Below are positions 1,448 to 16,229 of a stretch of 64,000 nt of DNA, piece by piece; positions within the stretch are counted from its first letter, which is position 1, and each line of letters opens with the position of its first letter. The notes below the pieces were generated by a model. That model did no database searches and was not told the DNA's origin. It saw nothing but the letters and a program-made list of their open reading frames with translations. Source of the DNA: an uncultured Candidatus Saccharibacteria bacterium. GTDB lineage: Bacteria > Patescibacteriota > Minisyncoccia > Phycocordibacterales > CALRHW01. The stretch spans positions 11,041-75,040 of the forward strand of contig CAYOUG010000002.1 in the NCBI GenBank assembly GCA_964407105.1, in the 5' to 3' direction. The position numbers were made by a program, and so were the translations under genes.

Positions 1448-1490
1448 TCACTGGACGCTTCTCTGGCGGATTTTTCTTTGTCTAAAAATC
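1448..1490 (+). terminator. rho-independent terminator: GAAAAATCC, 21-nt loop, GGATTTTTC, then TTTG
   Basis: A perfect 9-bp inverted repeat at 1448-1456 and 1478-1486 is followed by a T-rich stretch. Confidence 0.5.
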
Positions 1491-1528
1491 TAGCGCCTCA
1501 CACCCTGTCGTGTTATAATACCCCCATC

Positions 1529-2167: not shown

Positions 2168-2172
2168 AAACT

Positions 2173-2517: not shown

Positions 2518-2531
2518 CCCACAGTTTAGGC

Positions 2532-2560
2532 TTTTATTAAGACTTTGAATGTGTTATAAT
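2532..2560 (+). promoter_or_regulatory. candidate extended -10 promoter (TGtTATAAT) for gyrA
   Basis: TGTTATAAT at 2552-2560 lies 11 nt upstream of the gyrA ATG region. The -35 element is weak (TTTTAT). Confidence 0.35.
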
Positions 2561-2570
2561 ATCCAGATAT

Positions 2571-5039: not shown

Positions 5040-5050
5040 GAAGTATACAC

Positions 5051-5225
5051 ATCAACACAAAGACCTCTTGAACGAGTTAGCGGAAGAGGTTTAGAAAATG
5101 TTGAGATTTTTAGAAAAATGAAGCTGTCTGACGAGCGAAGCGAGGAGTTCTTCATTTTTCGTTAAAAAATCGATTACATTTTCAAAGCTCTGTAGCGCTT
5201 TAGTGAGAGAGGTCTTTGTGTTGAT
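5051..5225. repeat. nested inverted repeats in the gyrA 3' spacer
   Basis: The outer 18-bp inverted repeat is ATCAACACAAAGACCTCT (5051-5068) with AGAGGTCTTTGTGTTGAT (5208-5225). The inner hairpin is GAAAAATGAAG (5113-5123), a 26-nt loop CTGTCTGACGAGCGAAGCGAGGAGTT, and CTTCATTTTTC (5150-5160). Confidence 0.7.
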
Positions 5226-5229
5226 GCTA

Positions 5230-5337
5230 AAAACCAAAAACCATCTTTGGAAAACCACGCATAAATCGCTGCTGCGATTTTGCTACGCTCGGCCCGTCGG
5301 CCTGCGCGATGCTTTTCCAAAGATGGTTTTTGGTTTT
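5230..5337 (+). repeat. copy 1 of a conserved 58-nt GC-rich core (5255-5312) inside a perfect 25-bp AT-rich inverted repeat
   Basis: The arms are AAAACCAAAAACCATCTTTGGAAAA and TTTTCCAAAGATGGTTTTTGGTTTT. The core is CCACGCATAAATCGCTGCTGCGATTTTGCTACGCTCGGCCCGTCGGCCTGCGCGATGC. The core is repeated at 34218-34275 (minus) and 36819-36876. Confidence 0.9.
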
Positions 5338-5393
5338 TCCTTATACACATAAACAAATACTCCGATTGTCTTTTTTCCGCTATAATTAAAGTA

Positions 5394-5918
5394 ATGTTTG
5401 CCGATCCTATAAAAAACATAGAAAGCTTTTCACTTATTTCTGGTATGACAATAGCAGATCTTGGTGCTGGCTCTGGTGCGTATACGGTGCCCATAGCTCG
5501 TGCGGTGGGTGGTTTGGGAAAGGTGTATGCGGTAGACGTGCAAAAAGACCTTCTTACGCGCATAAAAAATGATGCCAACAAACAACACCTCATGAACATA
5601 GAGGTGGTGTGGGGAGATATTGAAAAACGCGGTGGTACTAAAATACGTGAGGGCTGTATCGATGGTGCTATTGCAAGCAACATTCTTTTTCAACTTCACG
5701 ACAAAGAGGGTTTTAGAGACGAAGTAAAAAGAATATTAAAACCCGGCGGTAGGGTGTTTATTATAGATTGGACGGATTCATTTGGTGGTCTTGGACCACA
5801 GCAGGCATCAGTATTTTCTCTTGCATCGTGCAAATCACTTTTTTCTAATGGTTTTTCAGTAGAAAAAGAATTTAGTGCGGGCACTCATCATTACGGGATA
5901 ATTTTCAAAAAACAATAA
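5394..5918 (+). CDS. class I SAM-dependent methyltransferase
   Basis: The SAM-binding motif I is ADLGAGSGAYT, and acidic and hydrophobic post-motifs follow (VYAVDVQ, FIIDW). The track ORF has an N-terminal extension that reads through the repeat; the ATG at 5394 is the likely start. Confidence 0.7.
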   Translation: MFADPIKNIESFSLISGMTIADLGAGSGAYTVPIARAVGGLGKVYAVDVQKDLLTRIKNDANKQHLMNIEVVWGDIEKRGGTKIREGCIDGAIASNILFQLHDKEGFRDEVKRILKPGGRVFIIDWTDSFGGLGPQQASVFSLASCKSLFSNGFSVEKEFSAGTHHYGIIFKKQ

Positions 5919-5919
5919 T

Positions 5920-7224
5920 ATGAAAAACATGAGCAAATTTCAGTTAATATTTACCGGTGTTTTTGTCGCTCTTATTTTTTTTGCAGTGATATTATTTTCT
6001 ATTGGCGGTATAGGGTCTTCCAATAATCAGTCTTCAGATCTTGTTGTGTGGGGTACTTTAAATGCGGCGCAATTTTCACAAATTGTAGAACGTTCTGGTT
6101 TAAAAAATAACAAATCACTAAAATTTACATATGTTCAAAAAAATGATGCCACTTTTGATACAGATTTTATAGAAGCGTTGGCTTCGGGTGTTGGTCCAGA
6201 TCTTTTCTTTTTACCGCAAAATTCAATACTTAAACATCAAGACAAACTTTATGTAATTCCATACAAAACCCTTTCCGAAAGAGATTTTAAAGACGTGTTT
6301 ATTGAGGAAGGGGAGCTTTATCTTACTTCAAAAGGTGTTCTTGGTATTCCTTTTATCATTGACCCACTTGTGATGTATTGGAATCGTACGATTTTTTCAA
6401 ATGCTGGCGTGAGTGCTCCACCAAAATATTGGAGTGACTTGTATGATCTTGCGCCACGTCTTGTTACAAAAGACGGTGCACTTAATGTGCGCCAAAGTGC
6501 TATTGCTTTTGGAGAATATTCAAACGTTTCTCATGCTCAAGATATACTTAGTATGCTTGTGATGCAGGCGGGTGGAAAAATAGCAGAGCGTCAATCAGAT
6601 GTTGTTACTAGTACACTTTTAAATAAATACAATGCACCGATAGTGCCAGCAAACACAGCGCTTAGTTTTTACACCGAATTTACAAATCCACTAAAGCCAT
6701 TTTATTCTTGGAACCGATCACTTTTAGCTTCAAAAAATTATTTTATTTCTGGTGATTTAGCGATTTATATCGGTTATGCTTCAGAGGTTGGTGAAATTCG
6801 TGCCAAAAATCCAAATCTTAATTTTGACGTGGCAAAAGTGCCACAATCGAAAGAAACAACACAAACTCTCACCTTTGGATCAATGCAAGCATTAGCCATA
6901 CCAAAAGCGTCTAAAAAACAAGCTGGCGCGGTAGAAGCCGCTCTTCTTTTGGTGGGTAAACCAGCACTTACCGAGCTTATAAACGTCACAAGTTTGCCGC
7001 CAGTGCGCCGTGACATGCTTTTGTCACAACCAGATGACAAATATATGTCGATATTTTATGAAAGTGCTGTGCAGGCTCGTGCATGGCTTGAACCCGATCG
7101 ATCACAAACCAAAAATATTTTTAAAGAAATGATAGAGTCTGTCACAAGTGGTAGGCGCACGATTAATGAGTCTGTGTCGCGTACAGATCTTGAACTTAAT
7201 GGATTATATAAAGAATTACAATAA
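5920..7224 (+). CDS. extracellular solute-binding protein (ABC transporter substrate-binding, family 1-like) with N-terminal membrane anchor
   Basis: The 434-aa product has an N-terminal transmembrane helix followed by a periplasmic-binding-protein-like fold (MalE-type length and composition). Confidence 0.55.
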   Translation: MKNMSKFQLIFTGVFVALIFFAVILFSIGGIGSSNNQSSDLVVWGTLNAAQFSQIVERSGLKNNKSLKFTYVQKNDATFDTDFIEALASGVGPDLFFLPQNSILKHQDKLYVIPYKTLSERDFKDVFIEEGELYLTSKGVLGIPFIIDPLVMYWNRTIFSNAGVSAPPKYWSDLYDLAPRLVTKDGALNVRQSAIAFGEYSNVSHAQDILSMLVMQAGGKIAERQSDVVTSTLLNKYNAPIVPANTALSFYTEFTNPLKPFYSWNRSLLASKNYFISGDLAIYIGYASEVGEIRAKNPNLNFDVAKVPQSKETTQTLTFGSMQALAIPKASKKQAGAVEAALLLVGKPALTELINVTSLPPVRRDMLLSQPDDKYMSIFYESAVQARAWLEPDRSQTKNIFKEMIESVTSGRRTINESVSRTDLELNGLYKELQ

Positions 7225-7646
7225 TGAAAAAACCTTTTTTACAACGTATCACTGTAGTAATGATGTTTTTGCTTATATTTTTTGTGATTGCTATGCCTGC
7301 AGTATCATTTGCTAAAATTAAAAGCGGTATTATACCTTGTGGCAACACTCCACCCGGTGCAACATTGGAACAAATAAATGCAGAGGCCTGTGATTTCAAC
7401 GATTTTCTTCAGTTAGGTAAAAATATTATTAATTATTTGGTGTTATTATCAATCCCACTTGCCGCGATTGCTTTTGCGTGGGCTGGATTTTTATACATTA
7501 CTTCGGGTGGAAGTGAGGGAAAAATTGGTAAAGCAAAAGATATATTTTGGAAGGTGATGTGGGGATTTATTTTTATTCTCACCGCGTGGCTGATAGTCTA
7601 CAGTATTACCAAGTTTTTGGACCCAGGATTTTCGTATCTTGGTTAA
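7224..7646 (+). CDS. pilin-like two-transmembrane protein, VirB2/TrbC (T4SS pilin)-like family, paralog 1
   Basis: A signal peptide is followed by a Cys-containing N-domain and a conserved C-terminal core (AFAWAGFLYITSGGSEGKIGKAKDIFWKVMWGFIFILTAW). All six tandem paralogs share the pattern hydrophobic helix, [FW]WG, acidic/basic loop ending in R/K, WGhh, second helix. Confidence 0.6.
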   Translation: MKKPFLQRITVVMMFLLIFFVIAMPAVSFAKIKSGIIPCGNTPPGATLEQINAEACDFNDFLQLGKNIINYLVLLSIPLAAIAFAWAGFLYITSGGSEGKIGKAKDIFWKVMWGFIFILTAWLIVYSITKFLDPGFSYLG

Positions 7647-7695
7647 TGTGTGTAGTATTCTCGACTTTATGAAACAGAAAAAATATAATAGATAT

Positions 7696-8085
7696 ATGAA
7701 ATTTCTTTCAAATGTGATGTTGGGGCTTTTGTTTGCCTTAGCGATTTTTGTGCCCTTTGTGCACGCAGAAATTACGTCTGGTAATTTATTTCCAAATCCA
7801 CTTGGTGACAGTGTTGGTAATAGTTTATATGGTTTTGTGTATTTTGTTCTTACAAATATTGTGATGCCTATTGGTTCCGTTGTCGTAGTATTTTTCATTA
7901 TTTATGCTGGATTTTTGTTTGTTACTGCGCGTGGCAATGAAAAGAAGCTTGAAAGCGCTAAAAAAACCTTTCTTGCTGTGGTTATCGGTGCAGTTATTTT
8001 ACTCGGCTCTTGGACAATCGCGAGTGCTATAAAAGGTACACTGTGTCAGATTTCTGGTGGAAATATTCCTGATCTATGTAACTAA
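7696..8085 (+). CDS. pilin-like two-transmembrane protein, paralog 2
   Basis: A signal peptide is followed by the core (FFIIYAGFLFVTARGNEKKLESAKKTFLAVVIGAVILLGSW) and a C-terminal Cys pair (LCQISGGNIPDLCN). Confidence 0.55.
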   Translation: MKFLSNVMLGLLFALAIFVPFVHAEITSGNLFPNPLGDSVGNSLYGFVYFVLTNIVMPIGSVVVVFFIIYAGFLFVTARGNEKKLESAKKTFLAVVIGAVILLGSWTIASAIKGTLCQISGGNIPDLCN

Positions 8086-8086
8086 T

Positions 8087-8497
8087 ATGAAAAAATATCT
8101 TACAAATTTTATAGGAATATTTCTTTTCGTGATTTTTCTGAGTGTACCAAACATAGCGTCAGCTCAGTTTTTGCAAGGCCTTTTTGGTTGTCCGGTTCCT
8201 CCGCAAAATTTTTCTGAGGTTGTGTGTATTTTTGTAGATATTTTACTTCTTCTCGTGCCACTTCTTGTAGGTATCGCATTACTTGTATTTTTCTGGGGCA
8301 TCGTAAAGTTTATTAAAAGTGCTGGTAGTGAAACTGCGCGAGACGATGCAAAAAATATTATGTTTTGGGGTATTATCGCTCTTTTTGTAATGGTTTCTAT
8401 TTGGGGTATCGTGCAATTTTTCTTTCAAGACTTTTTTGGTTTTAGTGTCGGTATTCATGTGTTTGGTATTCCACAGCTTCCATTTTTTCCAAATTAA
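8087..8497 (+). CDS. pilin-like two-transmembrane protein, paralog 3
   Basis: A signal peptide is followed by a Cys pair and the core LLVFFWGIVKFIKSAGSETARDDAKNIMFWGIIALFVMVSIWG. Confidence 0.6.
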   Translation: MKKYLTNFIGIFLFVIFLSVPNIASAQFLQGLFGCPVPPQNFSEVVCIFVDILLLLVPLLVGIALLVFFWGIVKFIKSAGSETARDDAKNIMFWGIIALFVMVSIWGIVQFFFQDFFGFSVGIHVFGIPQLPFFPN

Positions 8498-8506
8498 TTT
8501 TAAATT

Positions 8507-8803
8507 ATGTTTCAAATTTCTAACATTCAGCAACTCATTTTGGGCGTGACCTCTCTTGTGAAAATGCTTATTCCGCTTGTGGCAGGTATCGCATTACTTG
8601 TATTTTTTTGGGGCCTGGCAAAATTTGTGCTTCACGCAGACAGTGAAGATGCGCGTGAAGAGGGAAGGCGTCTTATGTTTTGGGGTATTATCGCTCTTTT
8701 TGTGATGATATCTGTATGGGGACTTGTATATTTTATTGGATCAGCTCTTGGTATTGGCCAGGGTGGTATAATGGGCTCTTTTTTCTCTTGGTCTGGATGG
8801 TAA
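8507..8803 (+). CDS. pilin-like two-transmembrane protein, paralog 4
   Basis: The core LLVFFWGLAKFVLHADSEDAREEGRRLMFWGIIALFVMISVWG is almost identical to the paralog 3 core. Confidence 0.6.
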   Translation: MFQISNIQQLILGVTSLVKMLIPLVAGIALLVFFWGLAKFVLHADSEDAREEGRRLMFWGIIALFVMISVWGLVYFIGSALGIGQGGIMGSFFSWSGW

Positions 8804-8926
8804 AAACATAAGCTATTCACATATCTTGCTGTCGTTGCGGTTGTATTAGGTTGTTCATAATAGTATGATTATATTGTGGTTTTTACACGTCGAAACGACG
8901 ATTATTATTTAAATAATTAAAGAAAG

Positions 8927-9268
8927 ATGAAAAAAGTTATTTTACTATTGGGATTATTTGCTACCCCATTATTTATACACGCACAAGTACTTGGAAACAT
9001 AACAGAAATTTTGAATGCAATAAAAAATATTGTTTCAAACCTTATTCCAATTATATTTGCACTTATTCTTATATATTTCTTTTGGGGTTTGGCAAAATTT
9101 GTGCTCAATTCAGGTGATGAAGACGCTCGAACAAACGGACGACAGATGATGATTTGGGGACTTGTGGCACTTTTTGTAGCTTCTGCGGTGTGGGGTCTTA
9201 CAAAGTTTATTGGAGATGCTATTGGTGTAGATAATGTAGATTCTGTAGACGTTCCTAGTATAAATTAA
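8927..9268 (+). CDS. pilin-like two-transmembrane protein, paralog 5
   Basis: The signal peptide is MKKVILLLGLFATPLFIHA and the core is LILIYFFWGLAKFVLNSGDEDARTNGRQMMIWGLVALFVASAVWG. Confidence 0.6.
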   Translation: MKKVILLLGLFATPLFIHAQVLGNITEILNAIKNIVSNLIPIIFALILIYFFWGLAKFVLNSGDEDARTNGRQMMIWGLVALFVASAVWGLTKFIGDAIGVDNVDSVDVPSIN

Positions 9269-9285
9269 ATCTGACTGTTAGTTTA

Positions 9286-9552
9286 ATGACGATTAATCAG
9301 CTTCTCAACAACATAATAGCTTACATTCTTCAGCCAATTATTTTGCTTATGTTTGCTATTGCTCTTGTTACTTTTTTCTGGGGCATTATTCAATTTATTT
9401 CCACATCAAACAGTGATGAGGGAAGAGAAACTGGCAAACGTACTATTGTGTGGGGGATTATTGGAATGCTTATAATGATAGGTGTGTATGGTGTTATTCG
9501 TATTTTGCTAGGCACTTTCGGTATTCCTGCTCCAAGTTATTTGGGATTTTAG
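9286..9552 (+). CDS. pilin-like two-transmembrane protein, paralog 6
   Basis: The core is ALVTFFWGIIQFISTSNSDEGRETGKRTIVWGIIGMLIMIGVYG. Confidence 0.55.
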   Translation: MTINQLLNNIIAYILQPIILLMFAIALVTFFWGIIQFISTSNSDEGRETGKRTIVWGIIGMLIMIGVYGVIRILLGTFGIPAPSYLGF

Positions 9553-9570
9553 GGTTTTGCAATTTAATCG

Positions 9571-9645
9571 AAAATAAAACAAAAAAACACTTCTCGAGTG
9601 GTTTAGCGAAGCGCTTTAACGAGAGAAGTGTTTTTTTGTTTTATT
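9571..9645 (+). terminator. long AT-rich hairpin terminator ending the pilin-like array
   Basis: A roughly 24-26-bp inverted repeat, AAAATAAAACAAAAAAACACTTCTCG with CGAGAGAAGTGTTTTTTTGTTTTATT, flanks a 23-nt loop AGTGGTTTAGCGAAGCGCTTTAA. Confidence 0.6.
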
Positions 9646-9661
9646 ATTATGTAACGTATCC

Positions 9662-9695
9662 AAAAAAAAGCGGCGAGTCTCGAAAGACTCGCCGC
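9662..9695 (-). terminator. rho-independent terminator of the minus-strand gene 9715-11007
   Basis: GCGGCGAGTC, loop tcgaaa, GACTCGCCGC is a perfect 10-bp stem at 9670-9695. The A8 run at 9662-9669 gives a U-run on the minus strand. Confidence 0.7.
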
Positions 9696-9714
9696 GCACG
9701 TTCACCCAAAGTTG

Positions 9715-11007
9715 TTACTTAAAGGTGATCGTGTAAGTGATGGGTGAACCCCCATCTGGTGCTCGGAACGCAATCGTCCGAATCGCCCCACCAAGATCTC
9801 TCTCGGCGGAAATCTGCATCCCCGGTTCGTACCAAAACTCTCTCGAGTCATTAATACGAATCCACGCCCCGCTACTGGTTTCGCACCCAATGTGCTTTCC
9901 AGCGACGTTGTACGTTTCGCTTTCTTTTCCTGGCATCAGCGTGCCTGTGATAACGGGCTTTGAAGAAGGTTGTGACACGTTTGTCACTGGCCTTCCCCAC
10001 GTTCCGTCTTTCTTGAGACCAATCGTGGCATCAAGAATGAGGAGTGTGATTGCTCCCACAATAACGAGCGTGATCGCACCCTTCAAAACCGCACTAAACG
10101 TTCCGGTGAAGAATGTCCAGCGGTCTTTGGCGGTAACCCTGTTCTTGTCTTCCACCACCTCTGGCTTTTTGAAGAGCCATGCAAGGAGCAGAACACTAGC
10201 CAGTCCAACAATCAGCCAAAACTCCAACGGTTTGTCCGCTTTAGTTTTTTCTAATGTCGGAACTACTGTGTGCTCCCACACGTCAGTGAACACAAGGCTC
10301 ATGATGACGTAGATGAGAACAATAAGGCAGAACAACCCCAAAAGCTTCTTCCAGAATGTGCCAGATGGTACGAATGGCTTGGTAGAGTCTATCACCCTTC
10401 CGAACCGCCCTCTTGGCGGGTTCGCAGGTGTCGGTGGTGATGTGGTGGCTGGCACCGCAGGTGTCGGCGACGTTGTCGTCGCAACCCTAGATTTTTGATT
10501 GGCCAGATATTTCTTCCGGAGAATCAACACCACCACAATACCAACAGCCAGCATGATTAGGTTGTTTACCAAGTTTCCTTGGACCACATTAACCACTTCA
10601 GCTGTTGCGGGTGATTCATCTACCACTTCCTCTTTGCTGTTTGAAGACAAGGAAAGAAATGGGTAGATGAGTGGGAAATACGTCGTGGATGAGTAAACGA
10701 CCATCACCGTGGTCGCAACCACCCCAACGAAAAACACCGCAAGCGAGGTGGTGGCCTTGTGTTTCCACAGATAATCACCCAACTTTTTTGTCTGTGTCCA
10801 CACCCACACGAAGCACCAATGAATGATACTTCGTGTTGTTTTGACAAAGGCAGTTCTCCTAAATCTCCTTGTTGTCATTGCGACCGCTGTTCCGAGTCGA
10901 TACCGACCAACCCATTCAAAGAATGAGGTATCGAGTATTACCCAGAACACCATACTGATCACAGAAATCAACAGAAGCAGGCCCACAAGGGCCAAAATTG
11001 TCCACAT
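9715..11007 (-). CDS. GC-rich polytopic membrane protein with Pro/Thr-rich linker and C-terminal beta-rich extracytoplasmic domain (hypothetical)
   Basis: The 430-aa product has multiple transmembrane helices, a TTTSPTPAVPATTSPPTPANPP linker, and a C-terminal soluble domain. Its GC content is about 50%, against about 38-40% in neighbouring genes. Confidence 0.6.
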   Translation of the reverse strand: MWTILALVGLLLLISVISMVFWVILDTSFFEWVGRYRLGTAVAMTTRRFRRTAFVKTTRSIIHWCFVWVWTQTKKLGDYLWKHKATTSLAVFFVGVVATTVMVVYSSTTYFPLIYPFLSLSSNSKEEVVDESPATAEVVNVVQGNLVNNLIMLAVGIVVVLILRKKYLANQKSRVATTTSPTPAVPATTSPPTPANPPRGRFGRVIDSTKPFVPSGTFWKKLLGLFCLIVLIYVIMSLVFTDVWEHTVVPTLEKTKADKPLEFWLIVGLASVLLLAWLFKKPEVVEDKNRVTAKDRWTFFTGTFSAVLKGAITLVIVGAITLLILDATIGLKKDGTWGRPVTNVSQPSSKPVITGTLMPGKESETYNVAGKHIGCETSSGAWIRINDSREFWYEPGMQISAERDLGGAIRTIAFRAPDGGSPITYTITFK

Positions 11008-11102
11008 AGGGCCTCCAGTTTGGTTGAATGAAAGGGAATTGTGAAAGGACGCTACGGTTTAAACCTTATCATAAAAAAATATAAAAGTCAAGTTTTTTAC
11101 AT

Positions 11103-11134
11103 GAAAAAGGCCCGCGACAACTCTGTCGCGGGCC
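11103..11134 (-). terminator. GC-rich rho-independent terminator of the SPFH gene
   Basis: GGCCCGCGACA, loop actc, TGTCGCGGGCC (11109-11134) is preceded on the plus strand by an A-run, which gives a U-run on the minus strand. Confidence 0.7.
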
Positions 11135-11165
11135 GGCTTGCTTTGAAGAACATACAACAGTGGAT

Positions 11166-12455
11166 CTAGGGCGTCCCTGGAGACGGTGGAGTCGTGGTTG
11201 TTGGGGGGGTTGTGGTTGTTGGAACCCCCTTGTCTCCCGCACCAAGCAATCCTTCCATAGCTGCTGCCATGAGTGGATTTCCTGCACCTCCATTACCCAT
11301 GAAAACAGTCTTGGTCTTGTCTCCACCCCACACGTCTTTAGCTGTTTGGGCTTGAAGAGCTAGTTGACCTTCACGTGTCTTCGCTGTTTTAGCGAGCCTT
11401 GCCAAACCAGCAGCTTCGCCCTCAAGCTCGTGCTTACGAGCCAGACCTCTACCTTGTCCATTAAGAATTGATTGCTCTCTGGTTGCCTCTGCGTCGGTGA
11501 TCGTTTTTCCCTTATTTGCTAATGCCTCACTTCGATTTGCCATAGCAAGGCTTACCCTTTTCGGAATTCCAAGATCAGTGATCTGGATTCCTTCATTGTC
11601 GATGTCGATACCCCACTGGTTTTTTTCATTTGACTCGGTGGCTGTTCCGGCGGCAACGTCCGGATCACCGATTGCTTCACCGACCTTTTTCTGAATGCTT
11701 GTCTTGAGTTCTTCTAATCTAGTTCGAGCCGTCGCCAAGCTCATTTTGCCCGACTCTGCTTGAAGTACACCCGTAACACTGTCTGCCAATGTCACACCCA
11801 CTTGCTCAAGGCTGTTAAACCTTTCTGCAAATGCAATGGTGTCGAAGATACTTAATCGAATCGTGATTCTCGGGTCTGTTGTAATCTCAGTGCGCAACGG
11901 GTTATTGTTAGTATTAGGACCGGTGTCAGCACTCCATATGACCCTGAACGGATCATTACTTCTCAGAAGCACGTCACCACGACTATCAAAAGTCGAAAAG
12001 TGACTAGTGATTCCGCTGTTTCCAGACGGAATAATGTTTCCTTCTTCATCCAAAATCGTTCTCGGTGTTGCAAGTTCGATTTGGATTTTTGATCCCGGAA
12101 AGGGTCGGAGAGAACACACTAGAAATGGCACAAACACAATTCCTGCCTTTACCCTTTGAATGGGTTTGCCGAAAAATAGTTTGACACCAATATCCGGTGC
12201 TGTAACTGACCGAAAACTAAGCGCAATGTAAATTACGCCAAGCCCCCCAAACAGCAAATCCGTGCTGATCGTTTGTCCGAAAATGGAGTATTGCTTACCG
12301 AATCCGGTAAACCACTTCCATCCAACAAACAGAACGACGATCGAAACAACGACCGTCATCCAAAACAGGAAAAACCTACGCCAGTTGTCATTCCGCATTT
12401 CATCTCGAGTCATGGTTTGTCTCCAGTAAGGTGTTGTATTTATTGTTCTTCGCAC
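11166..12455 (-). CDS. SPFH/band-7 (stomatin/HflK/C/flotillin-like) membrane protein with C-terminal Thr/Pro-rich tail
   Basis: An N-terminal transmembrane helix precedes SPFH-like core segments (IVFVPFLVCSLRPFPGSKIQIELATPRTIL, RITIRLSIFDTIAFAERF) and a long Ala/Glu-rich helical region. The tail is TTTTPPTTTTPPSPGTP. The gene is GC-rich. Confidence 0.6.
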   Translation of the reverse strand: MRRTINTTPYWRQTMTRDEMRNDNWRRFFLFWMTVVVSIVVLFVGWKWFTGFGKQYSIFGQTISTDLLFGGLGVIYIALSFRSVTAPDIGVKLFFGKPIQRVKAGIVFVPFLVCSLRPFPGSKIQIELATPRTILDEEGNIIPSGNSGITSHFSTFDSRGDVLLRSNDPFRVIWSADTGPNTNNNPLRTEITTDPRITIRLSIFDTIAFAERFNSLEQVGVTLADSVTGVLQAESGKMSLATARTRLEELKTSIQKKVGEAIGDPDVAAGTATESNEKNQWGIDIDNEGIQITDLGIPKRVSLAMANRSEALANKGKTITDAEATREQSILNGQGRGLARKHELEGEAAGLARLAKTAKTREGQLALQAQTAKDVWGGDKTKTVFMGNGGAGNPLMAAAMEGLLGAGDKGVPTTTTPPTTTTPPSPGTP

Positions 12456-12483
12456 ATCTCAAAGAACGTTCTTTACTGTTGTA

Positions 12484-12511
12484 GATTATACATAAAAAAT
12501 ATAAAAAGTCA
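12484..12511 (-). promoter_or_regulatory. sigma70-type promoter (TTGACT, 16-nt spacer, TATAAT) for the SPFH gene
   Basis: On the minus strand, TTGACT is at 12511-12506 and TATAAT at 12489-12484. A near-identical module, CATAAAAAA(A)TATAAAA(A)GTCAA, recurs at 11072-11091 upstream of gene 9715-11007. Confidence 0.5.
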
Positions 12512-12755
12512 ATACTTCCGTAATAGTTCAACGACTTGAATGGAAGCTTGGACGGATTTGGCGTAATATCGCAATATCACAAAACAGGATCAAATTGTAA
12601 TATAAATGAAACAAGTTTTGGCACCCAAATATTTTGTGTCAAAAGTAGACCAATTCCGATAATAATTAAAACTAACAAAAATATTCTTATAAAATCTATA
12701 AATTTCATTGTTACAATTATACTAAATAAAAATCATTACCCAAAACATTTTTCTG

Positions 12756-12837
12756 TGGGCGAGGGGAGACTCGAACTCCCATGGATTACTCCACTAGTTC
12801 CTAAGACTAGCGCGGCTACCAATTACGCCACTCGCCC
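12756..12837 (-). tRNA. tRNA-Leu (anticodon UAG), type II with a long variable arm
   Basis: The reverse complement GGGCGAGTGGCGTAATTGGTAGCCGCGCTAGTCTTAGGAACTAGTGGAGTAATCCATGGGAGTTCGAGTCTCCCCTCGCCCA folds as a cloverleaf. The acceptor is GGGCGAG/CTCGCCC, the T-arm is GGGAG-TTCGAGT-CTCCC, and the anticodon loop is CTTAGGA. Confidence 0.85.
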
Positions 12838-12873
12838 GGCGTTTACTTACGCTCGCATATTTTTGCGAACTTG

Positions 12874-12946
12874 TCCGCCCACCAGGATTCGAACCTGGGA
12901 CCCACCGCTTAAGAGGCGGTTGCTCTACCAACTGAGCTATAGGCGG
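12874..12946 (-). tRNA. tRNA-Lys (anticodon CUU)
   Basis: The reverse complement CCGCCTATAGCTCAGTTGGTAGAGCAACCGCCTCTTAAGCGGTGGGTCCCAGGTTCGAATCCTGGTGGGCGGA has the D-arm GCTC-AGTTGGTA-GAGC, the anticodon loop CTCTTAA, and the T-loop TTCGAAT. Confidence 0.8.
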
Positions 12947-13008
12947 ATTCACACATTTTATATATTCACACGTTGTCTTTATAACACAAACTCACTGAAA
13001 ATTAAACC

Positions 13009-13095
13009 TGGTGCCCGGGGCGGGAATCGAACCCGCAAGAGCTTTAGCTCACGACATTTTAAGTGTCGCATGTTTACCAATTTCATCACCTGGGC
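13009..13095 (-). tRNA. tRNA-Leu (anticodon UAA), type II, with CCA encoded
   Basis: The reverse complement GCCCAGGTGATGAAATTGGTAAACATGCGACACTTAAAATGTCGTGAGCTAAAGCTCTTGCGGGTTCGATTCCCGCCCCGGGCACCA has the anticodon loop CTTAAAA and the T-arm GCGGG-TTCGATT-CCCGC. Confidence 0.8.
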
Positions 13096-13567
13096 GTTTC
13101 TTCCGATTCTTTCCTCTGTGGGTCAGTTTGAGACTGTGACAGTTTGGACAAAGAATCCTCAAATTTTCTAAACGATTATCATGGCTATCACCGTTTATAT
13201 GATCGAGTTCTAAGGGTAATCTACCATCTTCTGACCTTTTTGCCCACCCACACTCTACACATTTATTAGACATAAAACCCTCTTTTATTAATCTATTTTT
13301 TAACTTATAACTTTGGTAATAACTATCTTTAATTAATATTTTTTCAATAGGTAAAATGGGTTTTCCTATTCCCATCAGACCCTTATTCCATGATTTTCCC
13401 CGAAAATGTTTCGTGTCAATTTTATAATATTCTATATATTTTTTAATTTGTGAATAATTTCCACCAGCCTCAATAAGTCCAAGCTTTTTTATGACTTGTC
13501 TAAAATTTGTTGAAGACTCCGAGGCTTCTCTTAATTGTTCTTCTGTCCAACTTTTCTTTTTATTCAT
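13049..13567 (-). CDS. HNH endonuclease (homing-endonuclease-like)
   Basis: The HNH motif is CVECGWAKRSEDGRLPLELDHINGDSHDNRLENLRILCPNCHS. The N-terminal region (SWTEEQLREASESS..KKLGL..GGNY) is typical of phage/mobile HNH enzymes. The last roughly 47 nt of the frame overlap the 5' half of tRNA-Leu(TAA). Confidence 0.75.
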   Translation of the reverse strand: MNKKKSWTEEQLREASESSTNFRQVIKKLGLIEAGGNYSQIKKYIEYYKIDTKHFRGKSWNKGLMGIGKPILPIEKILIKDSYYQSYKLKNRLIKEGFMSNKCVECGWAKRSEDGRLPLELDHINGDSHDNRLENLRILCPNCHSLKLTHRGKNRKKRPGDEIGKHATLKMS

Positions 13568-13627
13568 TTTGCCAATTATTATAGACAAAAAGAGATAAAG
13601 AAATTATAAAAAAAAGATAAAATTTTG

Positions 13628-13701
13628 AGGCGTAGGCCGGGGTTGAACCGGCGCATAGCAGTTTTGCAGACTGCCGCGTTAACCAACTTCGCCACTACGC
13701 C
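13628..13701 (-). tRNA. tRNA-Cys (anticodon GCA)
   Basis: The reverse complement GGCGTAGTGGCGAAGTTGGTTAACGCGGCAGTCTGCAAAACTGCTATGCGCCGGTTCAACCCCGGCCTACGCCT has the anticodon loop CTGCAAA, the T-arm GCCGG-TTCAACC-CCGGC, and the acceptor GGCGTAG/CTACGCC. Confidence 0.8.
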
Positions 13702-13762
13702 ATTTAGTGCACAATACCATTTATACCATATTTTAAGGGTTCAAACCAAAGAACTTTTGTTT

Positions 13763-14095
13763 TTAATTTTGTTTAGTTTGCTGTTCTAGATCGTCTATTA
13801 GCTGACGATTTTTTTCACCTTTATCTATTTCAAATTGGAAAAAAGGCAGAGATCGAATGCGGGTGTGTTCTTTTACATATTCTCGAAATTCACGTGCTTT
13901 TCGCGAAGCAAATTCAAGTGCTGTGCGTTCTTTATCTTCTGGAAACACCGTAAAAAAAATTGTGGCAATGTTGCTGTGTTCGTTGAAGGTGGAGTTGGTG
14001 ACGGTAATTAGAGAAGCAAGACTTGCTTCGTTGCGTAAAAATTCTGCCGCAAGATGCATCACATGTTCGCGAATTTTTTGTTCTCGGATGTTCAT
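13763..14095 (-). CDS. rbfA: ribosome-binding factor A
   Basis: The product is 110 aa, lies immediately downstream of infB, and has an RbfA-like KH fold and length. Confidence 0.7.
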   Translation of the reverse strand: MNIREQKIREHVMHLAAEFLRNEASLASLITVTNSTFNEHSNIATIFFTVFPEDKERTALEFASRKAREFREYVKEHTRIRSLPFFQFEIDKGEKNRQLIDDLEQQTKQN

Positions 14096-14097
14096 AA

Positions 14098-15639
14098 TTA
14101 AAGTTGTTTTTCTACAACACGTACAGATTCTATTCGATCACCGGGTGCAAGCTCTATTTTTGATTCAATGAGAGCGCCAAACTCAACACCCTCTTCCACT
14201 TCTGAGGCTTTTTCTTTAAATCTTTGAAGACCGCGTATTCTACCATTACCTATTTCTGCATCACGACGTAATATTTTTACTTGTGAACCGACACTAATCA
14301 TCCCACTTTCTACTTTTCCTCCTATTACGTGTTTGTCTTTTGTGGTGCTAAATATTTTTGCAATGCGAGCTTTGCCTGTGGATTCTTCTACGGACACATG
14401 AGGTTTTCGTTCATTTAAAAGTGCTTCTAGCCATTCGAGAAGTTTGTAAATGATATCAAATGTATAAATTGTTACGCCAGATCTTTCGGCGAGACTTATG
14501 GCAAGGGGATCAGCTTTTGTATGAAAACCAACCACAAAAGAAGAGCTGTCACCAATAGCGAGTTTTATGTCGGTTTCAGATATGGCGCCGATACCACTTT
14601 GAATTATTGAAAATTCTACCTGATCATTTTTTAGTTGTGAAATTTTATTTACTACAGCTTCAAGACTTCCACCCATATCTGCACGAATAATGAGGGGGAT
14701 TACAACGCGTTCGTTTGCACCACCACGTGATTCAGAAACTTTTTTCTTTTGTTCGTTTGCGGTTTTTTCAGCTTCTTGTGTTGCGTACAATTCTGCTTCT
14801 TTTTTTGTTGCAAATGTTTTAAACGGTGTACCTACAGCAGGAAGAATGTTCCAACCGATTACTCTTATTGGACTTGAAAAAGTTGCTTCTTTAATATTTT
14901 TTCCCATAAAATTTTCCATAATACGAATTGGCGATATACTTTTTCCAGCAACCACAAACATTCCTTGTGAAATTGTGCCATTTTGAATTATGAGTGTCGC
15001 GGTAATACCTTTTTTTGGATCAAGATTACTTTCAAGCACTACACCTTCTGCGGACACGCTGTGATTGGCGGTAAGTTCTTCAATTTCTGCAACAAGAAGC
15101 ATCATATCCAGAAGATCGTTTACGCCTTCGCCGGTTTTTGCAGAAATGGAAACGGTGGGAATATCACCACCATAACCTTCAATAAAAATTTCATTTTCAG
15201 CCAGACTTTGTTTTGTGTATTCTATGTTTGCGTTTGGTAGATCAATTTTATTTATTGCAACGATAAAAGGAACACCAGATTCTTTTATACATTTAAGCGC
15301 ATCGAGTGTTTGAGGTTTTACACCATCTTCGGCAGAGACAACAAGAACAGCAATATCTGCCACTTGAACACCGCGCATACGCAATGATTGAAAGGCTTCG
15401 TGTCCGGGTGTGTCAAGAAAAGTGATTGTGTGTTTTTCACCATCTTTACTTGTGTGAATTACTTCGTAGGCAGATACGTGCTGTGTAATGCCGCCAGCTT
15501 CTTTTGCGATAATGTTTGTTTTGCGAATATAATCAAGCAAGCTTGATTTTCCATGATCAATATGACCCATTACAGCAATAATAGGCGGTCTTAGAGACTG
15601 CTTTGTAGAAGCGGTTTTTTGTGGTGCAGTTTTTTTCAT
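14098..15639 (-). CDS. infB: translation initiation factor IF-2 (short form lacking N-terminal domains)
   Basis: The G domain is IIAVMGHIDHGKSSLLD / DTPGHEAF / NKID, followed by beta-barrel domains. It is 513 aa. Confidence 0.92.
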   Translation of the reverse strand: MKKTAPQKTASTKQSLRPPIIAVMGHIDHGKSSLLDYIRKTNIIAKEAGGITQHVSAYEVIHTSKDGEKHTITFLDTPGHEAFQSLRMRGVQVADIAVLVVSAEDGVKPQTLDALKCIKESGVPFIVAINKIDLPNANIEYTKQSLAENEIFIEGYGGDIPTVSISAKTGEGVNDLLDMMLLVAEIEELTANHSVSAEGVVLESNLDPKKGITATLIIQNGTISQGMFVVAGKSISPIRIMENFMGKNIKEATFSSPIRVIGWNILPAVGTPFKTFATKKEAELYATQEAEKTANEQKKKVSESRGGANERVVIPLIIRADMGGSLEAVVNKISQLKNDQVEFSIIQSGIGAISETDIKLAIGDSSSFVVGFHTKADPLAISLAERSGVTIYTFDIIYKLLEWLEALLNERKPHVSVEESTGKARIAKIFSTTKDKHVIGGKVESGMISVGSQVKILRRDAEIGNGRIRGLQRFKEKASEVEEGVEFGALIESKIELAPGDRIESVRVVEKQL

Positions 15640-15752
15640 TTCGGACTATTAAATGGGAGTATAGCATAAATAGTGACCAAAAACATACTTAAAATCATAT
15701 ATAATAACCACCAACAAAATTGGTTAAAAGTAAAAATATTTTACCTCTCTCT

Positions 15753-16229
15753 TTATTTTTGATTCACCACCTCTTTAGATTTATTCACCACTTCTTTTTC
15801 TTCATCAGAAAGTTCGTATTCTGATCCAAATTCTTTGAGCGGTTTTGAAAAAACACTAATGCGTTCACGAGAATGAAGTGTTGAAATTACAACACCGTCG
15901 CCGTGTTCGTTTAAAAAAGATGTAGAAAAGCTTTGATTGCCACCACCACCCGTTCCTTTAAATGGATTAAAACGTATTGTTTCAATACTCTGAATACTTT
16001 TTCGTAATCTTTTTTCTATGTTATGAAAATGCAAACTGGCTTTTTCTGCGAAAGCCTGCATCGATTTTATTTCTACTCGAAGTGTTTGTATAGCTTCTTC
16101 AATATTTTTTGCATTTGTGCCACCAAGTAAATTATTGATTCTCATTTCGAGTCTAACTATGAGTAATATAAACAATGCTAAAAGAGCAATGACGATTAAT
16201 AAAAGTATGTTGTCTGAAATGAAAGGCAT
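15753..16229 (-). CDS. hypothetical membrane protein (N-terminal transmembrane helix, coiled coil, Gly-rich FNPFKGTGGGGNQSF motif; DUF4446-like)
   Basis: The assignment rests on protein architecture only. Confidence 0.45.
   Translation of the reverse strand: MPFISDNILLLIVIALLALFILLIVRLEMRINNLLGGTNAKNIEEAIQTLRVEIKSMQAFAEKASLHFHNIEKRLRKSIQSIETIRFNPFKGTGGGGNQSFSTSFLNEHGDGVVISTLHSRERISVFSKPLKEFGSEYELSDEEKEVVNKSKEVVNQK

What the first reader, a model, noticed from the sequence alone, without database searches (positions are those of the whole stretch)
9715..12755. GC-rich two-gene islet (SPFH/band-7 protein plus polytopic Pro/Thr-linker membrane protein) with a duplicated promoter module and separate terminators, next to the tRNA cluster
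The two minus-strand genes 11166-12455 and 9715-11007 are about 50% GC in a background of about 38-40%. They encode Thr/Pro-rich linkers (TTTTPPTTTTPPSPGTP; TTTSPTPAVPATTSPPTPANPP), which are typical of high-GC lineages. Each gene has its own near-identical AT-rich upstream module, CATAAAAAATATAAAAAGTCAA at 12491-12512 and CATAAAAAAATATAAAAGTCAA at 11072-11091. On the coding strand these read TTGACT-N16-TATAAT for the SPFH gene. Each gene also has its own terminator: a GC-rich hairpin at 11109-11134 and GCGGCGAGTC..GACTCGCCGC at 9670-9695. The islet begins about 300 nt from the 3' end of tRNA-Leu(TAG), a classic island insertion point, and an HNH endonuclease sits in the same tRNA cluster. An SPFH protein with a partner membrane protein resembles NfeD-stomatin-type pairs, but here the order is inverted and the two genes are transcribed separately.
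Basis: partly seen in the sequence, partly recalled or inferred. Interest (0 to 1): 0.55.

Follow-up and report, generated by a model that had tools for sequence, protein, structure and literature searches.

The report
Hypervariable GC-rich SPFH membrane gene pair
Two GC-rich membrane-protein genes that looked like a foreign island are a fixed feature of this locus in many ultrasmall (CPR/Patescibacteria) bacteria: an SPFH scaffold protein and a partner membrane protein that diverge and recombine far faster than their neighbours and keep an odd, nearly even base composition in most of the genomes compared, whatever their GC content.

Summary
Two minus-strand genes (11166-12413, 9715-11007) have 48-50% GC and GC3 of 0.43-0.56, against 0.21-0.33 in neighbouring housekeeping genes. 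Each has a near-consensus promoter and a strong terminator. The island interpretation fails. Gene 1 belongs to a large divergent SPFH subfamily (AlphaFold pLDDT 84; top structural matches HflK/C, stomatin, prohibitin, QmcA). The order gyrA-methyltransferase-SBP-six VirB2-like pilins-[partner<-SPFH<-]-tRNA Leu/Lys/Leu/Cys-rbfA-infB recurs in 4 named Patescibacteria genomes and about 35 metagenomic loci. There is no att repeat and no mobility gene. Pro/Thr linkers recur in the family. No NfeD domain was found in 38 positional partners; 15 of 37 carry a lysozyme-like domain, but gene 2 is a sequence orphan. Across 40 loci the pair is GC3-enriched (0.50 and 0.46 vs 0.35; p=2e-9 and 4e-7), with nearly uniform third-position bases, while the pilins track the genome. 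SPFH similarity is uncorrelated with flank similarity (rho -0.01). A sister strain carries an imported tract of about 620 bp in gene 1 (dS 0.64 vs 0.04-0.12). Best reading: a conserved-slot, recombining SPFH-partner cell-envelope cassette. The cause of its composition is unresolved.

The parts
12485..12512 (-). Promoter of the SPFH gene: TTGACT, a 16-nt T-rich spacer, TATAAT
   Evidence: 11/12 consensus match. Conserved in L001. The same TTGACTT...TG.TA..AT type lies upstream of SPFH or partner genes in 19 of 57 orthologous upstream regions, against 0.5 expected.
12414..12478 (-). 5' leader of the SPFH gene, containing TCTTTGA (12459-12465) within the palindrome AAAGAACGTTCTTT
   Evidence: Read from the sequence. 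TCTTTGA occurs in 12 of 57 upstream regions of pair genes, against 1.3 expected. The predicted fold of this leader is not significant (z -1.2).
11166..12413 (-). Gene 1: SPFH (band-7) protein of 415 aa. It has two N-terminal hydrophobic helices, an SPFH domain with a beta-rich insertion, a 60-residue coiled-coil helix and a disordered C-terminus.
   Evidence: The family profile search found 693 representatives. 57 of 60 members hit PF01145. The family profile matches HflK at 7.9e-17. AlphaFold pLDDT is 84.1. The top 35 Foldseek hits in the PDB are all SPFH cage proteins.
11379..12002 (-). Recombination tract within gene 1 (aa 138-345), diverged from the sister strain L001
   Evidence: dS is 0.64 here, against 0.11-0.12 in the rest of gene 1 and 0.04 in gene 2. 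dN/dS is 0.22.
11169..11237 (-). Pro/Thr-rich C-terminal tail of the SPFH protein (GDKGVPTTTTPPTTTTPPSPGTP)
   Evidence: Similar tails occur in L002, L036, L052, L056 and L080. pLDDT is below 60.
11109..11134 (-). Intrinsic terminator of gene 1 (11-bp GC stem followed by a T-run)
   Evidence: Folds at -24.5 kcal/mol, z -5.8. The stem is conserved in L001 with the loop inverted.
11063..11091 (-). Promoter of gene 2: TTGACT, a T-rich spacer, TG-A-TAAGGT
   Evidence: Identical in L001. One of only two TTGACTTTT sites in the window.
9715..11007 (-). Gene 2: partner membrane protein of 430 aa, with about 6 predicted TM segments and a C-terminal soluble region of about 100 aa. It is a sequence orphan.
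   Evidence: No family hit. The only homologues are itself and a 98% identical copy in L001. It is the positional equivalent of the partner genes in 40 loci.
10414..10491 (-). Pro/Thr-rich linker of gene 2 (aa 173-198), flanked by Arg/Lys
   Evidence: Its coding repeats resemble those of the gene 1 tail (family D1).
9670..9695 (-). Intrinsic terminator of gene 2
   Evidence: Folds at -22.1 kcal/mol, z -4.0.
9573..9645 (+). Long hairpin terminator of the convergent pilin operon
   Evidence: Folds at -34.7 kcal/mol, z -7.6.
7224..9552 (+). Context: array of six VirB2-like T4SS_pilin genes, convergent with the pair
   Evidence: PF18895 hits for all six. Their order is conserved in related loci.
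12755..13701 (-). Context: tRNA cluster Leu(tag)-Lys(ctt)-Leu(taa)-[HNH]-Cys(gca), upstream of the pair
   Evidence: The same four tRNAs flank the SPFH gene in 17 of 19 related loci.

Best explanation
The two genes are the local version of a gene pair that holds a fixed slot in many Patescibacteria (CPR) genomes. The slot lies between a tandem array of VirB2-like pilin genes and a tRNA(Leu-Lys-Leu-Cys)-rbfA-infB block.

Shown:
- Gene 1 is a membrane-anchored SPFH protein of the HflK/stomatin/QmcA architecture.
- Gene 2 is the positionally conserved partner, a polytopic membrane protein with a variable soluble domain. That domain is lysozyme-like (SLT_3) in about 40% of relatives and unrecognisable here.
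- Both genes carry near-consensus promoters. Each has a strong intrinsic terminator.

Inferred, by analogy with HflK/C-FtsH and QmcA-YbbJ:
- The SPFH protein assembles into a ring or cage on the membrane.
- That cage corrals or stabilises the partner, whose soluble domain acts at the cell envelope next to the pilin machinery.

Evolution:
- The pair is hypervariable. Closely related genomes carry very different alleles.
- SPFH similarity is decoupled from flank phylogeny.
- Imported recombination tracts are visible between strains.

Composition:
- The GC-rich, nearly uniform third-codon-position composition is a property of this slot in low-, mid- and high-GC genomes alike.
- The most likely cause is recurrent recombination or allele replacement among CPR lineages. 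This would work through a shared allele pool, GC-biased gene conversion, or both.
- A single acquisition from a high-GC donor is not the cause.
For: Identity of gene 1:
- The family profile finds 693 cluster representatives, and 57 of 60 hit Band_7.
- The family profile matches HflK at 7.9e-17, and also QmcA and stomatin.
- The AlphaFold model has pLDDT 84.1 and shows a TM helix, the SPFH domain and a 60-residue coiled coil.
- The top 35 Foldseek hits are all SPFH cages.

Conserved slot:
- blastp synteny holds in L004-L007, which are named Patescibacteria.
- It also holds in the loci retrieved through the SBP gene.
- 31 of 37 informative loci have the convergent pair by a strict rule, and 3 more have an SPFH hit slightly displaced.
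- The same four tRNAs are present in 17 of 19 loci.

Partner:
- All 37 positional partners have 1-8 predicted TM segments.
- An SLT_3-like domain of about 88 aa is present in 15 of 37.
- The two genes overlap or abut in 16 of 40 loci. In the others they are 45-179 nt apart, usually with a terminator followed by a promoter.

Expression signals:
- TTGACTT occurs in 19 of 57 upstream regions against 0.5 expected, and is almost absent as a promoter elsewhere in these loci.

Hypervariability:
- L020 vs L021: SBP 83% and pil6 92% identical, but SPFH 45% and partner 37%.
- L026 vs L076: SBP 83%, SPFH 29%.
- Over 666 locus pairs, Spearman rho between SBP identity and SPFH similarity is -0.01.
- Nucleotide identity between L020 and L021 drops from 0.75-0.85 to 0.35-0.6 exactly over the pair.

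Recombination:
- Window vs L001, the centre of gene 1 has dS 0.64 and dN/dS 0.22, against dS 0.04-0.12 nearby.

Composition (40 loci):
- Mean GC3 is 0.498 for the partner and 0.456 for SPFH, against 0.351 for the flanks (Wilcoxon p = 2e-9 and 4e-7).
- The pilins at 0.345 track the flank (slope 0.84, r 0.95). The pair does so only weakly (slopes 0.34-0.48).
- Third-position bases are near 25% each in the pair.
- SPFH GC3 is 0.52-0.53 both in a genome with flank GC3 of 0.30 and in one with 0.70.
Against: - No experiment or co-fold shows that the SPFH protein oligomerises or touches gene 2.
- The membrane topology of the SPFH domain is unresolved. There are two N-terminal hydrophobic helices, and the positive-inside rule is ambiguous.
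- Gene 2 has no detectable homology to any other partner. Its equivalence is positional only.
- In the window the two genes have separate promoters and a strong terminator between them. Coupling of their expression is therefore not enforced.
- Three of 37 loci lack a recognisable pair. Only about 26 of 37 position-2 genes are securely SPFH.
- An allele pool drawn from the sampled lineages would average GC3 near 0.35, not 0.5. Exchange alone therefore does not explain the upward bias.
- GC-biased gene conversion alone does not explain why the pair is below the genome value in the 60% GC genome L006.
- Adjacency to the pilin array may be historical rather than functional.
Confidence: 0.6

Rival explanations
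1. One reading: a recently acquired genomic islet, integrated next to tRNA-Leu(tag) from a high-GC donor such as Actinobacteria.
For: - GC and GC3 are clearly above the local background.
- A tRNA cluster and an HNH gene are adjacent.
- Gene 2 has no homologues outside this species.
Against: - The same pair and the same tRNAs sit at the same position across Patescibacteria.
- There is no att-like repeat. No integrase was seen among the identified genes of the locus.
- All relatives that could be assigned are CPR.
- There are no phage or plasmid hits.
- Pro/Thr linkers are a family trait.
- GC enrichment recurs in 40 loci.
Confidence: 0.03
2. Strictly vertical inheritance with no inter-lineage replacement. 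The pair simply evolves very fast under diversifying selection at the cell surface. A local recombination hot spot within populations raises GC3 through GC-biased gene conversion.
For: - The slot is conserved.
- An imported tract between strains shows within-species recombination.
- GC3 is raised in nearly all low-GC genomes.
- HNH endonuclease genes recur next to the slot in the window, L021, L022, L056 and L076. They could supply double-strand breaks.
Against: - SPFH similarity is non-monotonic with flank similarity. L030-L022: SBP 74%, SPFH 63-65%. L030-L061: SBP 79%, SPFH unalignable.
- rho is -0.01 over 666 pairs.
- SPFH and partner similarities are decoupled from each other.
- The pair lies below genome GC3 in L006.
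- dN/dS of 0.22 in the variable tract indicates purifying rather than positive selection.
Confidence: 0.22
3. The composition is set by selection on the coding sequence. For example, deliberate use of non-preferred codons could slow translation for membrane insertion and oligomer assembly, or mRNA structure or stability could be under selection. Hypervariability would then be a separate phenomenon.
For: - The pair deviates from genome codon bias in both directions: above it in AT-rich genomes and below it in GC-rich L006.
- Third-position bases are nearly uniform.
- Strong promoters suggest high expression, where translation kinetics matter.
- Pilins are also membrane proteins, and they do not show the effect. 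It is therefore gene-specific.
Against: - Selection on codon usage is expected to be weak in small-population, reduced-genome CPR bacteria (general knowledge).
- rpoB and rpoC in the window show no such shift (GC3 0.21-0.24).
- GC2 is also raised (0.45-0.48).
- Several loci show little or no enrichment: L005, L043, L077, L086.
Confidence: 0.1

Closest known systems
HflK/HflC-FtsH complex (E. coli; PDB 7vhp, 7wi3, 9cz2)
   Same: It is the best match by both sequence profile (7.9e-17) and fold (1.9e-10). The shared architecture is an N-terminal membrane helix, the SPFH1/2 domains, a long coiled-coil helix and a C-terminal cap region. The inferred mode of action is also shared: a cage enclosing a membrane client.
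   Different: Here there is one SPFH gene rather than a K/C hetero-pair. There is an extra N-terminal TM helix, a beta-rich insertion (about aa 100-180) and a Pro/Thr tail. No FtsH is encoded nearby. The family is hypervariable and compositionally deviant, which HflK/C is not.
SPFH-NfeD operons (QmcA-YbbJ, PDB 8z5g; FloA-NfeD; PH1511-PH1510)
   Same: An SPFH gene is adjacent to, and on the same strand as, a small-to-medium polytopic membrane protein. The two overlap or abut in 16 of 40 related loci. QmcA is among the fold hits. The literature describes NfeD partners as promoting SPFH oligomerisation (PMC13086221).
   Different: No NfeD (PF01957) domain was found in any of 38 positional partners. 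The partners instead carry variable ectodomains, lysozyme-like in 15 of 37. In this window the two genes have separate promoters with a terminator between them.
VirB2-like pilin arrays of the Patescibacteria type IV secretion system (PMC12102498; essential array in Southlakia epibionticum, PMC10633639)
   Same: The pair lies immediately next to such an array of six PF18895 genes, in a gene order conserved across classes. The partner's SLT_3 domain in relatives recalls VirB1-type wall hydrolases. That resemblance is recalled from general knowledge and was not tested here.
   Different: Neither paper mentions an SPFH gene (0 occurrences). No VirB4, VirB6 or coupling protein was found among the genes of this window that were scanned. 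A functional link between the pair and the pilins is inferred from position only.
Replacement-type flexible islands (for example O-antigen or capsule loci, pilin and flagellin glycosylation islands)
   Same: Conserved flanks enclose highly divergent or non-homologous alleles at one chromosomal site. Similarity is incongruent with flank phylogeny, recombination tracts are present and the composition is atypical.
   Different: The cassette is only two genes long and always keeps the same architecture (SPFH plus a membrane partner). Its composition deviates upward towards about 50% GC, rather than towards AT as is usual for flexible islands (the comparison is from general knowledge).

Membership tests
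SPFH / band-7 superfamily (gene 1) | Significant match to the PF01145 Band_7 domain | tested here: inconclusive
   The window protein scores 22.9-23.3 bits, just under the 23.6 gathering cutoff. 57 of 60 family members match, with a best E-value of 4.6e-16. The family profile hits HflK at 7.9e-17 and QmcA at 5.6e-14.
SPFH / band-7 superfamily (gene 1) | SPFH alpha/beta fold followed by a long coiled-coil helix | tested here: met
   AlphaFold model with pLDDT 84.1 and a helix at 285-344. The top 35 Foldseek hits in the PDB are all SPFH proteins, aligned over about 330-350 columns.
SPFH / band-7 superfamily (gene 1) | N-terminal membrane anchor | tested here: met
   Hydrophobic helices lie at about residues 14-36 and 51-66. 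The second aligns with the TM helix of HflK.
SPFH / band-7 superfamily (gene 1) | Assembly into a large ring or cage oligomer | not testable with these tools
   No multimer prediction or experiment was available. It is inferred from the architecture.
NfeD family (gene 2 as SPFH partner) | C-terminal NfeD OB-fold domain (PF01957) | tested here: not met
   There is no NfeD hit for gene 2, nor for any of 38 positional partners at E <= 0.01.
NfeD family (gene 2 as SPFH partner) | Encoded next to an SPFH gene on the same strand | tested here: met
   True in the window (158-nt gap) and in 40 loci. The genes overlap or abut in 16 of them.
tRNA-integrated genomic island | Direct repeat of the tRNA 3' end at the far boundary | tested here: not met
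   No repeat of tRNA-Leu near 9700. There is only a 17-nt chance-level match inside gene 1.
tRNA-integrated genomic island | Integrase or other mobility genes, and absence from related genomes at the same site | tested here: not met
   No integrase was seen among the identified genes. The only candidate is an HNH gene inside the tRNA cluster. The pair is present at the same site in 31 of 37 informative loci and in 4 named Patescibacteria genomes.
tRNA-integrated genomic island | Atypical base composition | tested here: met
   GC3 is 0.43 and 0.555, against 0.21-0.33. The same deviation recurs in 40 loci, which argues against a single acquisition.
Replacement-type hypervariable locus | Conserved flanks with highly divergent alleles whose similarity is incongruent with the flanks | tested here: met
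   (rho -0.01 over 666 pairs).
Replacement-type hypervariable locus | Direct evidence of recombination tracts | tested here: met
   The tract of about 620 bp in gene 1 has dS 0.64, against 0.04-0.12 in adjoining sequence.
SLT_3 lysozyme-like membrane proteins (partner family in relatives) | PF18896-like domain C-terminal to the TM segments | tested here: not met
   It is present in L036 (32.8 bits, cutoff 27) and L031, and by an iterated local HMM in 15 of 37 partners. Gene 2 of the window gives no hit even at E <= 10.

The most novel reading that the evidence does not exclude
The slot is a dedicated swap site conserved across much of the CPR. A two-gene envelope cassette (an SPFH cage plus a membrane protein with a variable ectodomain) is repeatedly replaced among lineages, by natural transformation and homologous recombination or by gene conversion triggered by endonucleases. 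Turnover is fast enough that the cassette keeps its own base composition, about 25% of each base at synonymous sites, regardless of host genome GC. The cassette would then act as a strain-specific surface identity determinant, for host attachment or recognition or for phage evasion, working with the adjacent essential pilin array.
Probability: 0.3. Interest if true: 0.75.

Novelty: new variant of a known kind. Interest (0 to 1): 0.6.

Why it matters
CPR/Patescibacteria are a very large and mostly uncultured part of bacterial diversity, and they live attached to other cells. Their envelope machinery is largely unknown. This analysis adds three things.

1. A widespread CPR SPFH subfamily with no coverage in the searchable literature. 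It has 693 representatives at 50% clustering.
2. A fixed genomic partnership of that subfamily with a variable membrane protein, next to the VirB2-like pilin array that is essential in the one genetically tractable Saccharibacterium.
3. An unusual evolutionary signature. The pair holds a conserved position, yet its sequence diverges extremely fast, recombination is evident, and its base composition is nearly independent of genome GC.

If the signature reflects allele swapping or biased gene conversion, it gives a concrete locus for measuring recombination and surface-driven selection in CPR bacteria. It also gives a candidate determinant of strain-specific host interaction. More generally, it shows that a GC-rich patch next to a tRNA is not sufficient evidence of a foreign island.

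Tried and rejected
- AlphaFold on gene 1 with only 3 sequences gave an unusable model (pLDDT 37.9). It was repeated with 60 sequences.
A 4-sequence alignment worked.
- The viral contig scan found no relatives.
- blastn and tblastn against phages and plasmids found nothing.
- NCBIfam, PHROGs and PADLOC gave no meaningful hits for either protein. A role as a known defence system is therefore unsupported.
- Rfam found only the four tRNAs.
- There is no att-like direct repeat.
- Gene 2 has no homologues in any search tried:
  - the full-length search found only itself;
  - the C-terminal 105 aa alone found nothing;
  - phmmer against 37 positional partners and tblastn against all loci found nothing;
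  - the PDB search found nothing.
- The closest SBP relative, L008 (65% identity), ends inside its partner gene, and what is visible is unrelated to gene 2.
- The gene 1 leader does not fold significantly better than shuffled sequence (z -1.2), so I do not claim a structured RNA.
- Rejected explanations for the high GC:
  - codon optimisation for high expression, because rpoB and rpoC have GC3 of 0.21-0.24;
  - transcription-associated deamination, because C3 rises and T3 falls on the coding strand, the opposite of what is expected;
  - assembly artefact, because the pair appears in independent assemblies.

Full report
**1. What is in the sequence**

Region 9540-12860 holds two minus-strand genes.

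Gene 2 runs 11007-9715 (430 aa) and has a GGAGG ribosome-binding site.

Gene 1 ends at 11166. The mechanical ORF starts at GTG 12455. The ATG at 12413 is the real start, for three reasons. It has GGAG 8 nt upstream. It lies 65 nt after the predicted transcription start. It is the start called in the homologous contig L001. Gene 1 is therefore 415 aa.

The composition anomaly is real. The genes have 47.6% and 49.5% GC and GC3 of 0.43 and 0.555. gyrA, infB, rpoB/C, dnaE and the other neighbours have GC3 of 0.21-0.33.

Both promoter-like elements are present:
- TTGACT-16-TATAAT at 12512-12485, an 11/12 match.
- TTGACTTTTATATTTTTTTATGATAAGGT at 11091-11063.

Both terminators are strong, at -24.5 and -22.1 kcal/mol with z-scores of -5.8 and -4.0.

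TTGACTTTT occurs only at these two places in the 64 kb window. The shared module is therefore not common genome-wide.

tRNA-Leu(tag), Lys(ctt), Leu(taa) and Cys(gca) lie upstream. An HNH gene sits inside that cluster.

**2. Gene 1 is an SPFH protein of a large, very divergent subfamily**

On its own the protein narrowly misses the Pfam Band_7 threshold (22.9 bits against 23.6).

The word-indexed search found only an 85% identical copy (P0001) and one 23% relative (P0002). An exhaustive profile search then found 693 cluster representatives at E <= 1e-3 and 463 at E <= 1e-10.

Family-level results:
- 57 of 60 members hit Band_7.
- The family profile matches HflK (7.9e-17), QmcA, stomatin and HflC among solved structures.

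With a 60-sequence alignment AlphaFold gave a confident model (pLDDT 84.1). It shows an N-terminal helix, a second hydrophobic helix, an SPFH domain with a beta-rich insertion, a 60-residue coiled-coil helix and a disordered tail.

The top 35 Foldseek hits in the PDB are all SPFH cage proteins: HflK/C, stomatin, prohibitin, erlin, QmcA-YbbJ and flotillin.

**3. The pair is not an island; it occupies a conserved slot**

A scan of GTDB species representatives returned four loci, all Patescibacteria: two labelled Saccharibacteria, one Paceibacterota and one "Patescibacteria group".

blastp against the window's proteins showed the same order in all four:

gyrA - methyltransferase - solute-binding protein (SBP) - five or six VirB2-like pilins - [membrane partner <- SPFH <-] - tRNAs - rbfA - infB

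I then used the SBP gene as an anchor in JGI metagenomes and retrieved 80 loci with SBP identity of 44-65%. Results:
- 37 non-redundant loci extend at least 2.5 kb beyond the last pilin gene.
- 31 of them have a convergent pair of minus-strand genes directly after the pilins.
- 3 more have an SPFH hit slightly displaced.
- About 26 of the position-2 genes are securely SPFH, counting my family HMM and Pfam hits above threshold. Three more are weak Band_7 matches.

The four tRNAs Cys-Leu(taa)-Lys-Leu(tag) lie between rbfA and the SPFH gene in 17 of 19 loci checked. The tRNA adjacency is therefore ancestral synteny, not an integration site.

Other tests of the island reading also fail:
- No repeat of the tRNA 3' end.
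- No integrase was seen among the identified genes of the locus.
- No similarity to phages, plasmids or viral contigs.
- No defence-system model hit.

**4. The partner**

All positional partners are membrane proteins with 1-8 predicted TM segments and lengths of 129-593 aa.

None of the 38 scanned carries an NfeD domain.

Two hit the lysozyme-like SLT_3 domain (L036 above threshold). An iterated local HMM shows the same domain of about 88 aa in 15 of 37 partners.

Gene 2 of the window matches none of them. Beyond its own species nothing in the databases matches it either.

Its predicted layout is six TM segments, an Arg/Lys-flanked Pro/Thr linker and a C-terminal soluble region of about 100 aa. 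By the positive-inside rule the linker would be cytoplasmic and the C-terminal region external. This is inference only.

Pro/Thr-rich linkers and tails recur in partners and SPFH proteins of several low-GC relatives. They say nothing about a high-GC donor.

**5. Expression signals are a family trait**

The pair genes in related loci use the same promoter type:
- TTGACTT occurs in 19 of 57 upstream regions, against 0.5 expected.
- Extended -10 words such as TGATATA and TGCTATAAT are also enriched.
- Within these loci this promoter type is almost confined to the pair.

Where the two genes are 45-179 nt apart (24 of 40 loci), the spacer usually holds a terminator hairpin followed by a promoter, as in the window. 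In 16 of 40 loci the genes overlap or abut.

The "duplicated module" is therefore best read as two instances of a conserved strong-promoter type. A local duplication is less likely, though it cannot be excluded.

**6. Hypervariability and recombination**

Closely related genomes carry very different alleles:

| Pair | SBP identity | pil6 identity | SPFH identity | Partner identity |
|---|---|---|---|---|
| L020 vs L021 | 83% | 92% | 45% | 37% |
| L026 vs L076 | 83% | 85% | 29% | 29% |

Similarity is also non-monotonic. L030 shares 63-65% SPFH identity with L022 (SBP 74%), yet is unalignable with L061 (SBP 79%).

Over 666 locus pairs, SBP identity and SPFH similarity are uncorrelated (Spearman -0.01). 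For the partner the correlation is 0.29. The two genes can also be decoupled from each other.

Along L020 vs L021, nucleotide identity falls from 0.75-0.85 to 0.35-0.6 exactly over the pair.

Contig L001 comes from a sister strain with the same context. Compared with the window:
- Gene 2 is 98% identical (dS 0.04).
- The ends of gene 1 are near-identical (dS 0.11-0.12).
- Codons 138-345 of gene 1 have dS 0.64 and dN/dS 0.22.

That central segment is an imported, purified allele segment, not in-place positive selection.

**7. The composition anomaly is lineage-wide**

In 40 loci:

| Gene class | Mean GC3 | Wilcoxon vs flank |
|---|---|---|
| Flanking housekeeping genes | 0.351 | - |
| Pilins | 0.345 | p = 0.52 |
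| Partner | 0.498 | p = 2e-9 |
| SPFH | 0.456 | p = 4e-7 |

Pilin GC3 tracks the genome (slope 0.84, r 0.95). The pair does so only weakly (slopes 0.34-0.48, r about 0.45).

Third-position bases in the pair are almost uniform: A .27-.29, C .24-.25, G .22-.25, T .23-.26. The flanks are A .30, C .17, G .18, T .35.

SPFH GC3 is 0.52-0.53 both in L004 (flank 0.30) and in L006 (flank 0.70).

A single foreign acquisition cannot explain this. Ongoing allele exchange, GC-biased gene conversion at a recombination hot spot, and selection on the coding sequence remain candidates. None is proven.

Exchange alone does not explain a pool mean above the mean of the sampled genomes. Gene conversion alone does not explain the downward deviation in L006.

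**8. How it most likely works**

Shown: an SPFH protein of cage-forming architecture and a co-located polytopic partner, both behind strong promoters, in a conserved envelope-gene neighbourhood.

Inferred, by analogy with HflK/C-FtsH and QmcA-YbbJ (PMC13086221):
- The SPFH protein forms a membrane ring or cage.
- The cage confines or stabilises the partner.
- The partner's soluble domain acts at the envelope. In many relatives that domain is lysozyme-like, which hints at wall remodelling next to the pilin machinery.

Published work describes these pilin arrays and their essentiality (PMC12102498, PMC10633639) but does not mention an SPFH gene. Two full-text searches found no paper on CPR SPFH proteins.

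**9. Verdict**

- The horizontal-island and NfeD interpretations are not supported as stated.
- What is there is a new, CPR-wide variant of the SPFH-partner theme, with an unusual and unexplained evolutionary signature.
- Confidence by claim:
  - identity of gene 1 and slot conservation: high;
  - recombination and replacement: good;
  - the scaffold mechanism: moderate;
  - the cause of the composition: low.

Noticed in passing
window 13049-13588 (-) and tRNA-Leu(taa) 13009-13095 (-): The HNH endonuclease ORF runs 47 nt into the 5' part of tRNA-Leu(taa), so its last ~15 codons and its stop lie inside the tRNA gene. HNH genes recur in or beside the same tRNA cluster in L021, L022, L056 and L076. 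Several loci also have inverted tRNAs or insertions between the tRNAs.
   Followed up: partly
window 12577-12708 (-): A 43-aa hydrophobic ORF (MKFIDFIRIFLLVLIIIGIGLLLTQNIWVPKLVSFILQFDPVL) lies between tRNA-Leu(tag) and the SPFH promoter. It is AT-rich and has TATAAT just upstream. It was called as a gene in L003 and is conserved in L001.
   Followed up: no
window 23354-23382 (+) and 23448-24056 (+): This is another GC-rich orphan (GC3 0.55). It encodes a polytopic membrane protein with no Pfam hit, behind the same promoter type (TTGACTTTAAATATATAATATGTTATTAT). That promoter is one of only four strict TTGAC[AT]...TA..[AT]T sites in the window.
   Followed up: partly
window 28002-28571 (+) and 37468-37941 (-): These two GC-rich orphan ORFs (GC3 0.47 and 0.60) look like paralogues by eye; no alignment was run. 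Shared C-terminal motifs include ...DSAY..., LP.G..F, G.YFRF, VEVL and IDF.K..Y.D. Neither has a Pfam hit. 53501-53998 (-) is a further GC-rich orphan with a TTGACA-17-TATAGT promoter.
   Followed up: no
window 12459-12465 (-); leaders in L005, L020, L021, L026, L043, L063, L076, L080, L086: TCTTTGA occurs in the 5' leaders of SPFH genes and of some partner genes: 12 of 57 upstream regions against 1.3 expected. It often lies just 3' of a hairpin whose 3' arm ends in CTC. AAAACTCTTTGAAAA is identical in the distant loci L005, L063 and L086. CTCTTT could pair with the AAGGAG ribosome-binding site. There is no Rfam match, and the window's own leader does not fold significantly.
   Followed up: partly
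window 11109-11134 vs L001 1519-1544: The gene 1 terminator has an identical 11-bp stem in both strains. Its 4-nt loop is reverse-complemented (GAGT vs ACTC), as expected from a hairpin-loop inversion.
   Followed up: no
window 1478-16229 and loci L004-L087: A gene order of about 15 kb is conserved across CPR classes: two small ORFs, gyrA, methyltransferase, SBP, pilin paralogues in a fixed order (pil1, pil2... pil6), the pair, four tRNAs, rbfA, infB and a DUF4446 gene. The methyltransferase is missing in one sub-clade.
   Followed up: partly
L031 14099-15631 (-), L036 13905-15062 (-) and 13 other loci: In many relatives the partner carries a lysozyme-like SLT_3 domain (PF18896) C-terminal to its TM segments. 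One partner instead has an N-terminal-type phosphatase (PhoD_N / Pur_ac_phosph_N) domain. The soluble domain is therefore modular.
   Followed up: yes
window 9573-9645 (+): A 23-bp perfect-stem hairpin (-34.7 kcal/mol) flanked by A- and T-runs lies between the last pilin gene and the gene 2 terminator. It probably terminates the pilin operon and could act in both directions.
   Followed up: no
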